From: Escherichia phage ev_rybdy3
Direction: 5' to 3' (one strand)
Length of the DNA stretch: 64,000 nucleotides
Sequence record: PQ819470.1
The translations under genes and the position numbers were made by a program. Below the pieces are notes generated by a model. That model worked only from the letters and a program-made list of their open reading frames with translations, was not told the DNA's origin and searched no databases. This document shows positions 54,119-54,614 of the stretch, piece by piece (within the stretch, counting starts at the first letter, position 1; every line of letters starts with the position of its first letter).

Positions 54119-54469
54119 ATGCAAAACACATTAAGTGATAACTTAGGGTTTATCGTTTTCTCGGCTCTTGTATTCTTTGGTGGTATGAAGTTTAACGAGT
54201 ACCAAACAGACAGCAGTAATCTGGACAAAGAGAAGCACCAGCAAGAGTTAGAGATTGAAAGAAGTAGAGCAGCTGATGAAGTTGCTCAGAGGGTTCTTAC
54301 CGGTTTATCTAACTGGAAGAAGAACACGGAAACCGTTTATAAAGAGATGCATTATGAGAAAACTAAACCAGTTTTTTATAATGTCTGCGCTAGTGATGAG
54401 TATGTCAGCTTGTTCAATGAGCGACAACAGCAGGCAATCAATGCCCTTACCAACAAACCTAAAAGCTGA
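54119..54469 (+). CDS. i-spanin (Rz-like inner-membrane spanin subunit)
   Basis: 116 aa; N-terminal TM FIVFSALVFFGG then helical periplasmic domain; contains embedded lipoprotein ORF in +1 frame. Confidence 0.5.
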   Translation: MQNTLSDNLGFIVFSALVFFGGMKFNEYQTDSSNLDKEKHQQELEIERSRAADEVAQRVLTGLSNWKKNTETVYKEMHYEKTKPVFYNVCASDEYVSLFNERQQQAINALTNKPKS

Positions 54470-54613
54470 ATGTAGGGTTGACCTACCTCTTTTAGAAAGT
54501 GCTCAAGGAAAAGCACTAGCCACTACGTTGGAGTGGTATCAGGACCAGTACACAGAATGTGCTGCCAATCACAATGGATTGCTAGAAGCTCTGAAAGAGC
54601 GTGGAATAGAATA

Positions 54614-54614
<1 letters not shown>
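54354..54614 (+). CDS. o-spanin (Rz1-like outer-membrane lipoprotein), overlapping i-spanin in another frame
   Basis: Starts inside i-spanin gene; signal peptide MRKLNQFFIMSALVMSMSA|C with lipobox; short mature domain. Confidence 0.5.

What the first reader, a model, noticed from the sequence alone, without database searches (positions are those of the whole stretch)
54119..54614. Spanin pair in overlapped architecture with no recognisable endolysin or holin nearby
An Rz-like i-spanin (N-terminal TM, helical periplasmic domain) contains in its +1 frame the start of an Rz1-like lipoprotein that runs 145 nt past the i-spanin stop. The adjacent upstream gene looks like an SSB, not a lysin, and the only peptidoglycan hydrolase candidate seen (SleB-like, 18759) is 35 kb away in the early region. 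The holin and endolysin may therefore be novel or located elsewhere, possibly among the small membrane proteins at 42974-43347 or 52905-53020.
Basis: partly seen in the sequence, partly recalled or inferred. Interest (0 to 1): 0.45.

Follow-up and report, generated by a model that had tools for sequence, protein, structure and literature searches.

The report
Known phiEco32-type spanin gene pair
The two overlapping genes are a real outer-membrane-disrupting "spanin" pair of a phiEco32-like coliphage, already catalogued in the literature, and the "missing" holin and endolysin are ordinary genes lying in the 13.8 kb of the phage genome that the window does not cover.

Summary
An i-spanin gene (54119-54469) and an o-spanin lipoprotein gene (54354-54614, +1 frame) overlap by 116 nt, and the o-spanin runs 145 nt past the i-spanin stop.

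The window is 100% identical to Escherichia phage ev_rybdy8, a Kuravirus (phiEco32-like). The pair corresponds to phiEco32 genes 39 and 38. Kongari et al. 2018 already list it as an overlapped spanin pair with the same 116-nt overlap.

Both reading frames are under purifying selection. Distant homologues of both proteins close canonical holin-endolysin-spanin cassettes in Sashavirus and Gorganvirus phages.

The suggestion that holin and endolysin may be novel is not supported. A putative holin (phiEco32 gp16 homologue) and a GH24 lysozyme (gp17 homologue) sit side by side in the late morphogenesis module. That is about 19 kb from the spanins, on the opposite strand, and outside the 64-kb window.

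The spanins belong to the middle-gene unit headed by the published gp36-dependent promoter P40, whose element TAATGTATA lies at 53248-53256. Unlinked spanin genes are already known from T4.

Side claims hold up. The upstream gene is an OB-fold, SSB-like protein, and 18759-19148 carries a SleB-type Hydrolase_2 domain.

Verdict: ordinary and already known.

The parts
53248..53256 (+). TAATGTATA element, matching the phage sigma (gp36)-dependent middle promoter 'P40' of phiEco32. It lies 60 nt upstream of the gp40-homologue start and is the likely promoter of the unit that contains the spanin genes.
   Evidence: Exact match to the published consensus tAATGTAtA. PMC4331800 places this motif upstream of phiEco32 genes 6, 13, 26, 40, 58 and 68. 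PMC8948821 gives the consensus and a start site 6-8 bp downstream. Activity was not measured here.
53316..54062 (+). phiEco32 gp40 homologue: a 248-aa OB-fold protein with a disordered acidic C-terminal tail (…EDDNDSPF), a probable single-stranded-DNA-binding protein. It is not a lysis gene.
54084..54105 (+). Conserved intrinsic-terminator-like hairpin (AGCCACC-TCCG-GGTGGCT plus T5) between the SSB-like gene and the i-spanin gene. A predicted outer stem (54067-54071 UCUCC with 54110-54114 GGAGA) would pair with the i-spanin Shine-Dalgarno sequence.
   Evidence: Terminator scan. RNA fold gives -18.9 kcal/mol, z=-2.5. Stem, T-run and both outer-stem arms are identical in five kuraviruses; only the second loop base varies (C or T). 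There is no covariation to test. Function is inferred.
54119..54469 (+). i-spanin (phiEco32 gp39 homologue; JH2 i-spanin family of Kongari et al.). 116 aa, N-terminal transmembrane segment at about aa 8-23, helical periplasmic part, single conserved Cys90. The GGAGA Shine-Dalgarno sequence lies 5 nt upstream.
   Evidence: (PHROG 1152, E=2.7e-37). Literature.
54354..54614 (+). o-spanin (phiEco32 gp38 homologue, usually annotated truncated from the internal Met at 54441). 86-aa prolipoprotein with lipobox MSAC, Cys20, Ser at +2, and a 67-aa mature part with Cys40 and Cys69. It is in the +1 frame, overlaps the i-spanin by 116 nt and runs 145 nt beyond it.
   Evidence: (PHROG 2425, E=3.7e-26; PHROG 456 'Rz-like spanin', E=0.009). 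Kongari supplement gives 'Phieco32 ovl … 116' and the same 86-aa sequence type for NJ01.
54614..55054 (+). Macro-domain (Appr-1-p processing) gene. Its ATG overlaps the o-spanin stop (TAATG). It is followed by the sigma factor gene (55074-55721). This shows that the spanins sit inside a tightly packed middle-gene unit and not in a lysis cassette.
   Evidence: Pfam Macro, E=1.3e-10. Sequence read directly. Record annotation. A sigma70-like promoter at 55026-55055 matches the promoter described for the sigma gene in SU10.

Best explanation
The locus is the two-component spanin of a Kuravirus (phiEco32-like podophage), homologous to phiEco32 genes 39 and 38.

Proposed mechanism:
- The i-spanin is anchored in the inner membrane by its N-terminal transmembrane segment and projects a mostly helical domain into the periplasm.
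- The o-spanin is made as a prolipoprotein, lipidated at Cys20, cut by signal peptidase II and sorted to the outer membrane (Ser at +2).
- The two join through their C-terminal parts into a complex that spans the periplasm, probably stabilised by disulfides through the conserved cysteines.
- The complex is held in check by the peptidoglycan mesh. It disrupts the outer membrane, most likely by fusing it with the inner membrane, only after the wall is degraded.

Wall degradation is done by ordinary partners encoded elsewhere: a putative one-TMD holin (gp16 homologue) and a cytoplasmic GH24 lysozyme (gp17 homologue). These lie side by side in the late morphogenesis module, about 19 kb away on the other strand, in the part of the genome outside the window.

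The spanin genes are part of the middle-gene unit that starts at the sigma-gp36-dependent promoter P40. They sit downstream of a conserved hairpin that probably attenuates read-through.

Shown here: the gene anatomy, the conservation of both frames, homology to pairs that close lysis cassettes in other phages, and the existence and location of the putative holin and the lysozyme. Inferred from knowledge of lambda Rz/Rz1 and T4 PseT.3/PseT.2: membrane localisation, complex formation, the fusion mechanism and the timing.
For: Identity of the source: the window is 100% identical to PQ819471.1 positions 11849-75848, and 96% identical to phiEco32 over the spanin locus.

Protein families: PHROG 1152 'Rz-like spanin' E=2.7e-37; the o-spanin matches PHROG 2425 at E=3.7e-26.

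Anatomy: TMD, lipobox MSAC, Ser at +2 and the cysteines. All are kept in six related loci down to 48% identity.

Both frames coding: halved diversity in the overlap and third-position excess in each gene's own frame.

Guilt by association: tblastn finds homologues of both proteins together in 194 and 434 phage records. In Salmonella phage Sergei they are the last two genes of holin-endolysin-holin-i-spanin-o-spanin. In Proteus phage PM-CJR they follow holin and a CHAP hydrolase. In Felixounavirus they lie 1.2 kb downstream of a lysin. The alignments keep the TMD, the i-spanin motif EKT.P.F.N.C and the o-spanin lipobox Cys and C-terminal C-x4-N.

Partners: putative holin PHROG 11161 E=2.8e-50 and Pfam Phage_lysozyme E=3.7e-32, adjacent in the same genome and in phiEco32. 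The lysozyme shows the E25-8aa-D34-5aa-T40 spacing typical of T4-type lysozymes (read; the motif is from my own knowledge).

Literature: PhiEco32 is listed in the JH2 i-spanin family and in a 4-member o-spanin group, with overlapped architecture and 116-nt overlap. Holin and endolysin lie among the morphogenesis genes in all kuraviruses. The P40 motif is placed upstream of gene 40, and an exact match is present at 53248-53256.
Against: - No member of this particular spanin family has been tested experimentally, as far as I could find. In Kongari et al. the complementation tests concern T4, T1 gp11 and lambda.
- The i-spanin N-terminus carries no positive charge. [quoted passage not shown]
- The hydrophobic segment is short, about 16 residues.
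- No coiled coil is predicted for the i-spanin in Kongari's table. My single-sequence AF2 model is all-helical but of low confidence (pLDDT 56).
- There are no Pfam hits to the lambda Rz or Rz1 families.
- The 'holin' label of gp16 rests on position and one TMD only.
- Middle-class expression is inferred from promoter position and published class boundaries, not from data on genes 38 and 39.
Confidence: 0.9

Rival explanations
1. The spanin pair is real, but the phage uses a non-canonical holin and/or muralytic enzyme. Candidates are the tandem two-TMD proteins at 42973-43347, the 35-aa membrane peptide at 52902-53009, or the SleB-like hydrolase at 18759-19148.
For: 18759-19148 passes the Pfam Hydrolase_2 threshold (33.2 against 27 bits) and keeps the N-terminal YEAG motif that aligns with the catalytic region (read directly). 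The proteins at 42973-43152 and 43162-43347 are paralogues (33% identity, E=2e-10), each with two TMDs, which is a holin-like format. The holin assignment of gp16 is untested.
Against: A GH24 lysozyme with intact catalytic spacing sits directly next to a small one-TMD protein in the late module of the same genome, and this is conserved across kuraviruses. That is the usual signature of the working holin-endolysin pair. The SleB-like gene lies in the early region, has no export signal and is very basic (+11). The small membrane proteins lie in middle or early regions and match only families of unknown function (PHROG 9296 and 24970).
Confidence: 0.06
2. The pair is not a lysis function here. 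It is instead a middle-expressed inner-membrane protein plus lipoprotein with another envelope role, such as superinfection exclusion or receptor masking, which has kept only the spanin-like format.
For: The pair is located in the replication/transcription (middle) module, co-oriented and packed with macro-domain and sigma genes, and not in the late module. This family has no experimental data. The o-spanin family is labelled 'unknown function' in PHROGs.
Against: Homologues of both proteins occupy the terminal positions of canonical lysis cassettes in unrelated siphophages. No other spanin candidate is annotated in the genome. A podophage of E. coli with a holin-lysozyme pair is expected to need one (Kongari et al.). 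T4 shows that unlinked, non-late spanin genes work as spanins. There is no match in PADLOC.
Confidence: 0.03
3. The +1-frame ORF is a chance open frame and only the i-spanin-like gene is real.
For: Most GenBank records annotate only a truncated 57-aa 'hypothetical protein' starting at 54441.
Against: In the 145-nt part beyond the i-spanin stop, variable sites are 23, 10 and 43 at codon positions 1, 2 and 3 of the o-frame. The start, the signal peptide and the lipobox Cys are conserved down to 48% i-spanin identity. tblastn finds homologues in 194 records, including annotated o-spanins.
Confidence: 0.01

Closest known systems
phiEco32 gp39/gp38 (Kuravirus), as catalogued by Kongari et al. 2018: i-spanin in the 'JH2' family; o-spanin in the group NJ01/ECBP2/KBNP1711/PhiEco32
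   Same: It is the same gene pair. The locus is 96% identical in DNA. The architecture is identical: overlapped, 116-nt overlap, 116-aa and 86-aa products. The neighbours are the same: gp40, macro domain and sigma.
   Different: Only a few amino-acid substitutions, for example S49 in the window against N49 in the phiEco32 i-spanin.
Lambda Rz/Rz1 (prototype two-component spanin)
   Same: The functional format is the same: a type II inner-membrane protein with a helical periplasmic domain, plus a small outer-membrane lipoprotein encoded in the +1 frame of the same DNA, with periplasmic cysteines.
   Different: There is no detectable sequence relationship and no Pfam Rz or Rz1 hit. The architecture is overlapped rather than fully embedded. 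The o-spanin is about 46% helical by Kongari's prediction and has only 3 prolines, whereas Rz1 is proline-rich. No coiled coil is predicted. The pair is not part of an S-R-Rz cassette.
T4 PseT.3/PseT.2
   Same: [quoted passage not shown]
   Different: The T4 genes are separated, not overlapped. T4 PseT.3 has no cysteine, whereas here the i-spanin has one conserved Cys. T4 function is proven by complementation, and this pair's is not.
Sashavirus (9NA/Sergei gp65-gp66) and Gorganvirus (PM-CJR) spanins
   Same: They are true but distant homologues of both proteins (33-41% identity), also overlapped.
   Different: There the pair is the last element of a contiguous holin-endolysin-spanin cassette. 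Here it is about 19 kb from the putative holin and the endolysin.

Membership tests
i-spanin (two-component spanin, inner-membrane subunit) | Single N-terminal transmembrane domain giving type II (N-in, C-out) topology | tested here: inconclusive
   One hydrophobic segment at about aa 8-23 (KD17 maximum 1.64). It aligns with the TMD annotated in Sergei gp65. The N-terminus has no positive charge (Kongari's note) and no dedicated topology predictor was available, so the TMD is present but its orientation is not shown.
i-spanin (two-component spanin, inner-membrane subunit) | Predominantly alpha-helical periplasmic domain, usually coiled-coil | tested here: inconclusive
   The single-sequence AF2 model is all-helical (helices 36-76, 79-91, 93-111) but has pLDDT 56. 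Kongari's supplement gives 61% helix and no coiled-coil segment.
i-spanin (two-component spanin, inner-membrane subunit) | Sequence homology to catalogued i-spanins | tested here: met
   PHROG 1152, E=2.7e-37. tblastn matches annotated i-spanins of Felixounavirus, Sashavirus and Erwinia phages. Listed in the JH2 family.
i-spanin (two-component spanin, inner-membrane subunit) | Gene embedded in, overlapping or adjacent to an o-spanin gene | tested here: met
   116-nt overlap, +1 frame.
o-spanin (outer-membrane lipoprotein subunit) | Signal peptidase II signal with a lipobox and invariant Cys | tested here: met
   MRK n-region, hydrophobic core, and lipobox MSAC, MSSC or LSAC conserved in all relatives. 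It aligns with the SPII site annotated in Sergei gp66. This is a pattern-level test; LipoP and SignalP were not available.
o-spanin (outer-membrane lipoprotein subunit) | No Asp at +2, so no inner-membrane retention by Lol avoidance | tested here: met
   Ser21 follows Cys20.
o-spanin (outer-membrane lipoprotein subunit) | Short mature periplasmic domain with cysteine(s) for intermolecular disulfides | tested here: met
   67-aa mature part with Cys40 and Cys69. Cys69 is invariant in the four-way alignment. Disulfide formation itself was not tested.
Two-component spanin (function) | Complements the lambda Rz/Rz1 lysis defect, and its loss gives spherical-cell arrest | not testable with these tools
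   This needs an experiment. No published test for this family was found.
Lambda Rz / Rz1 sequence families (the Pfam lambda Rz and Rz1 models) | Significant match to the Pfam models | tested here: not met
   No Pfam hit for either protein at E<=0.05, except a sub-threshold DUF3290 match. The pair works like Rz/Rz1 but is not a member of those sequence families.
Contiguous lambda-type lysis cassette (holin-endolysin-spanin) | Spanin genes adjacent to holin and endolysin genes | tested here: not met
   The putative holin and the endolysin lie 19.1 kb and 19.6 kb beyond the o-spanin stop, on the other strand and in the late module.
GH24 (T4-type) phage lysozyme, the partner endolysin outside the window | Pfam PF00959 match above threshold and Glu-8aa-Asp-5aa-Thr catalytic spacing | tested here: met
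   111.7 bits against a cutoff of 22.3. E25, D34 and T40 are read from the sequence. There is no hydrophobic N-terminal segment, so it is not a SAR endolysin.
Single-stranded-DNA-binding protein (upstream gene 53316-54062) | OB fold plus an acidic C-terminal protein-interaction tail | tested here: met
   [not shown]

The most novel reading that the evidence does not exclude
The annotated gp16 'holin' is not the only lysis timer, or not the real one. Under this reading kuraviruses spread lysis functions over three temporal classes:
- an early, signal-less SleB-type hydrolase (18759-19148);
- middle-class spanins whose dose is set by the conserved terminator and SD-sequestering hairpin at 54067-54114, together with the tandem two-TMD paralogues (42973-43347) acting as holin/antiholin;
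- the late lysozyme.

The evidence here does not exclude this, because none of these proteins has been tested.
Probability: 0.06. Interest if true: 0.4.

Novelty: already known. Interest (0 to 1): 0.07.

Why it matters
It matters little for biology. The pair, its overlapped architecture and the separate location of holin and endolysin in kuraviruses are all in the literature and in several GenBank records.

The practical value is for annotation:
- Most kuravirus records, including the RefSeq phiEco32 record and the window's own source record, call the o-spanin as a truncated 57-aa hypothetical protein that lacks its signal peptide and lipobox.
- PHROG 2425 carries no function label.
- The Kuravirus genome paper searched for the term here (PMC9965538) does not mention spanins at all.

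The case also shows that 'no partner gene nearby' in a window shorter than the genome is not evidence of absence.

Tried and rejected
- **Pfam and NCBIfam** gave nothing useful for either spanin, and PADLOC gave nothing. This fits the known sequence diversity of spanins and does not count against the assignment.
- **PDB sequence search** for the upstream protein found nothing. An NCBIfam hit to 'replication initiation protein NGO0469' is far below its cutoff (24.9 against 75 bits) and was not used.
- **Single-sequence AF2** of the i-spanin gave only a low-confidence helical model.
- **The two primary phiEco32 papers** (Savalia 2008, PMC2587145; Pavlova 2012, PMC3275717) are not held. The temporal class of genes 38 and 39 therefore rests on secondary descriptions.
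- **Longer upstream starts** for the o-spanin (the TTG at 54255 and the ATG at 54276) were rejected. They are not conserved in ECBP2 or L012 and would bury the signal peptide.
- **Rfam** found only a tRNA in the window.
- **The 107-aa minus-strand ORF** at 54523-54846 was treated as a shadow of the macro-domain gene.

Full report
**What is there.** The window holds an ATG ORF at 54119-54469 (116 aa). In its +1 frame there is an ORF whose conserved ATG is at 54354 and whose stop is at 54614 (86 aa).

The first product has one N-terminal hydrophobic segment (about aa 8-23) and a single Cys, C90. The second has a basic n-region (MRK), a hydrophobic core, the lipobox M-S-A-C with Cys20, Ser at +2, and a 67-aa mature part with Cys40 and Cys69. 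A GGAGA Shine-Dalgarno sequence precedes the first gene. The weak AGAG noted by Kongari et al. precedes the second.

**Is it more than chance?** Yes.
- The first protein matches PHROG 1152 'Rz-like spanin' at E=2.7e-37. The second matches PHROG 2425 (no function label) at E=3.7e-26, and weakly matches PHROG 456 'Rz-like spanin'.
- In six related loci from IMG/VR, with i-spanin identity down to 48%, the MRKL/MKRL start, the lipobox (MSAC, MSSC or LSAC), the frame relation and the extension are all kept. Longer upstream starts are not kept.
- Across these loci the mean pairwise nucleotide difference is 0.27 in the i-spanin-only part, 0.26 in the o-spanin-only part and 0.14 in the overlap.
- Variable sites concentrate at the third codon position of the gene that alone codes there: 63 of 141 in the i-frame and 43 of 76 in the o-frame. 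Both frames are therefore under purifying selection.

**Where the window comes from.** The locus is 100% identical to Escherichia phage ev_rybdy8 (PQ819471.1) and 96% identical to phiEco32, the type Kuravirus. The whole window equals record positions 11849-75848 of PQ819471.1, reverse-complemented. The window therefore holds 64.0 kb of a 77.8-kb genome.

The pair corresponds to phiEco32 genes 39 ('Rz-like spanin' in RefSeq) and 38. Gene 38 is annotated there, and in the source record, as a 57-aa hypothetical protein starting at the internal Met that corresponds to window 54441, so the annotated product lacks the signal peptide. A few records (EK5, ShigP1) do annotate 'o-spanin'.

**Already in the literature.** Kongari et al. 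2018 (PMC6139136) list PhiEco32 in the 15-member 'JH2' i-spanin family, together with Felix O1-type phages. They place its o-spanin in a group of four (NJ01, ECBP2, KBNP1711, PhiEco32). Their supplementary table gives 'Phieco32 ovl -1 35417 35768 35272 35533 … 116'. This is the same overlapped architecture and the same 116-nt overlap, with products of 116 and 86 aa, 61% and 46% predicted helix and no coiled coil.

**Independent support for the spanin function.** tblastn with each protein finds distant homologues (28-41% identity) of both, together, in several unrelated phage groups.
- In Salmonella phage Sergei (Sashavirus) the homologous pair forms the last two genes of a contiguous holin-endolysin-holin-i-spanin-o-spanin cassette. 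The annotators predicted a TMD (aa 7-29, N-in, C-out) and an SPII site at residues 19-20.
- In Proteus phage PM-CJR the pair follows a holin and a CHAP peptidoglycan hydrolase.
- In a Felixounavirus it lies 1.2 kb downstream of a lysin.
- The alignments keep the TMD, the i-spanin motif EKT.P.F.N.C…Y…FNE with the invariant Cys, the o-spanin lipobox Cys and the C-terminal C-x4-N motif (window: CAANHNGL).

No member of this family seems to have been tested experimentally. The complementation tests in Kongari et al. concern T4, T1 gp11 and lambda.

**The 'missing' holin and endolysin.** In the source genome a 72-aa protein with one TMD (PHROG 11161 'holin', E=2.8e-50) and a 163-aa protein (Pfam Phage_lysozyme PF00959, E=3.7e-32, 111.7 bits; PHROG 7 endolysin) lie side by side at record positions 1536-2275. 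They sit between tail-fibre and tail genes and are the homologues of phiEco32 gp16 and gp17.

The lysozyme has the Glu25-8aa-Asp34-5aa-Thr40 spacing of T4-type lysozymes and no N-terminal hydrophobic segment, so it is a canonical cytoplasmic endolysin that needs a holin.

Extended from the window, these genes would lie at about 73.6-74.3 kb. That is 19.1-19.6 kb beyond the o-spanin stop, on the opposite strand. tblastn of both proteins against the window gives only noise. The virion SLT transglycosylase (gp22 homologue) is also outside the window.

Published descriptions agree. [quoted passage not shown] A third says holin and lysozyme are conserved in SU10, phiEco32, NJ01 and KBNP135 (PMC4281155).

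**Transcriptional setting.** The spanin genes are packed, on the same strand, between the gp40 homologue and the macro-domain gene, followed by the sigma factor gene. The macro-domain ATG overlaps the o-spanin stop (TAATG).

Sixty nucleotides upstream of the gp40 homologue there is an exact TAATGTATA at 53248-53256. This is the consensus of phiEco32 promoters used by the phage sigma factor gp36, reported upstream of genes 6, 13, 26, 40, 58 and 68.

Between the gp40 homologue and the i-spanin lies a terminator-like hairpin at 54084-54101 followed by T5. Its stem and T-run are identical in five kuraviruses; only the second loop base varies. The predicted fold adds an outer stem that pairs UCUCC (54067-54071) with the i-spanin Shine-Dalgarno GGAGA (54110-54114). 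The fold energy is -18.9 kcal/mol with z=-2.5.

I infer that the spanins are middle-class genes made from P40 read-through, at a level damped by this hairpin. This was not measured, and the primary transcription paper was not available.

Early synthesis would be harmless, because spanins act only once the peptidoglycan is degraded (established for lambda; my own knowledge). T4 is a documented precedent for spanin genes unlinked from holin and endolysin. The synteny of the SSB-like gene followed by the spanin pair is kept even in a distant 88-kb relative (L012).

- *ORF 18759-19148.* It passes the Pfam Hydrolase_2 (SleB/CwlJ-type) threshold (33.2 against 27 bits). It has no export signal, carries a net charge of +11 and lies in the early region. 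Its role is unknown.
- *Small membrane proteins.* The proteins at 42973-43152 and 43162-43347 are tandem paralogues (33% identity) with two TMDs each, and both match PHROG 9296 of unknown function. The 35-aa peptide at 52902-53009 matches PHROG 24970. Nothing ties any of these to lysis.

**Verdict.** The 'novel or missing holin/endolysin' reading is not supported, because it is an artefact of a window shorter than the genome. The feature is already known. What remains is an annotation correction for the o-spanin start, and a few untested side features.

Noticed in passing
window 54441-54614 against 54354-54614: The source record and RefSeq phiEco32 (gp38) annotate the o-spanin as a 57-aa hypothetical protein starting at an internal Met, which removes its signal peptide and lipobox. 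PHROG 2425, which holds it, has no function label.
   Followed up: yes
window 54067-54114: The intergenic hairpin with its T-run is identical across five kuraviruses apart from one loop base, and is better conserved than the flanking coding sequence. A predicted outer stem pairs UCUCC with the i-spanin Shine-Dalgarno GGAGA. It may act as a combined attenuator and translational damper. No covariation is available to test it.
   Followed up: partly
window 18759-19148 (+): A 129-aa early-region protein made of little more than a SleB/CwlJ-type Hydrolase_2 domain (33.2 bits, cutoff 27). It has no signal peptide or TMD and a net charge of +11. It also matches PHROG 12974 (unknown function). Its role is unknown.
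   Followed up: partly
window 42973-43152 and 43162-43347 (+): Tandem paralogous 59-aa and 61-aa proteins (33% identity), each with an N-terminal and a C-terminal TMD. Both match PHROG 9296 (unknown function). They lie just upstream of a thioredoxin-like gene.
   Followed up: partly
[not shown]
   Followed up: yes
window 55026-55055 (+): A near-consensus sigma70-type promoter (TGGACA-18 nt-TATAAT, 11 of 12 matches) lies inside the 3' end of the macro-domain gene, just upstream of the phage sigma factor gene (55074). It matches the 18-nt-spaced promoter described for the SU10 sigma gene.
   Followed up: partly
window about 11290-11530: The window runs across the physical ends of the phiEco32-type genome. 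phiEco32 coordinate 1 maps to about window 11528, because the source record is a permuted assembly. Head and packaging genes therefore lie on the minus strand at the 5' end of the window.
   Followed up: partly
window 22545-22617 (+): This is the single tRNA gene (Rfam 72.4 bits). It is annotated tRNA-Arg in the source record.
   Followed up: no
L012 1064-1502: In the distant 88-kb relative (IMGVR_UViG_3300013023_000001), two extra small ORFs sit between the SSB-like gene and the i-spanin. One ends in a long Ser-rich low-complexity tail. The i-spanin there starts further upstream (122 aa).
   Followed up: no
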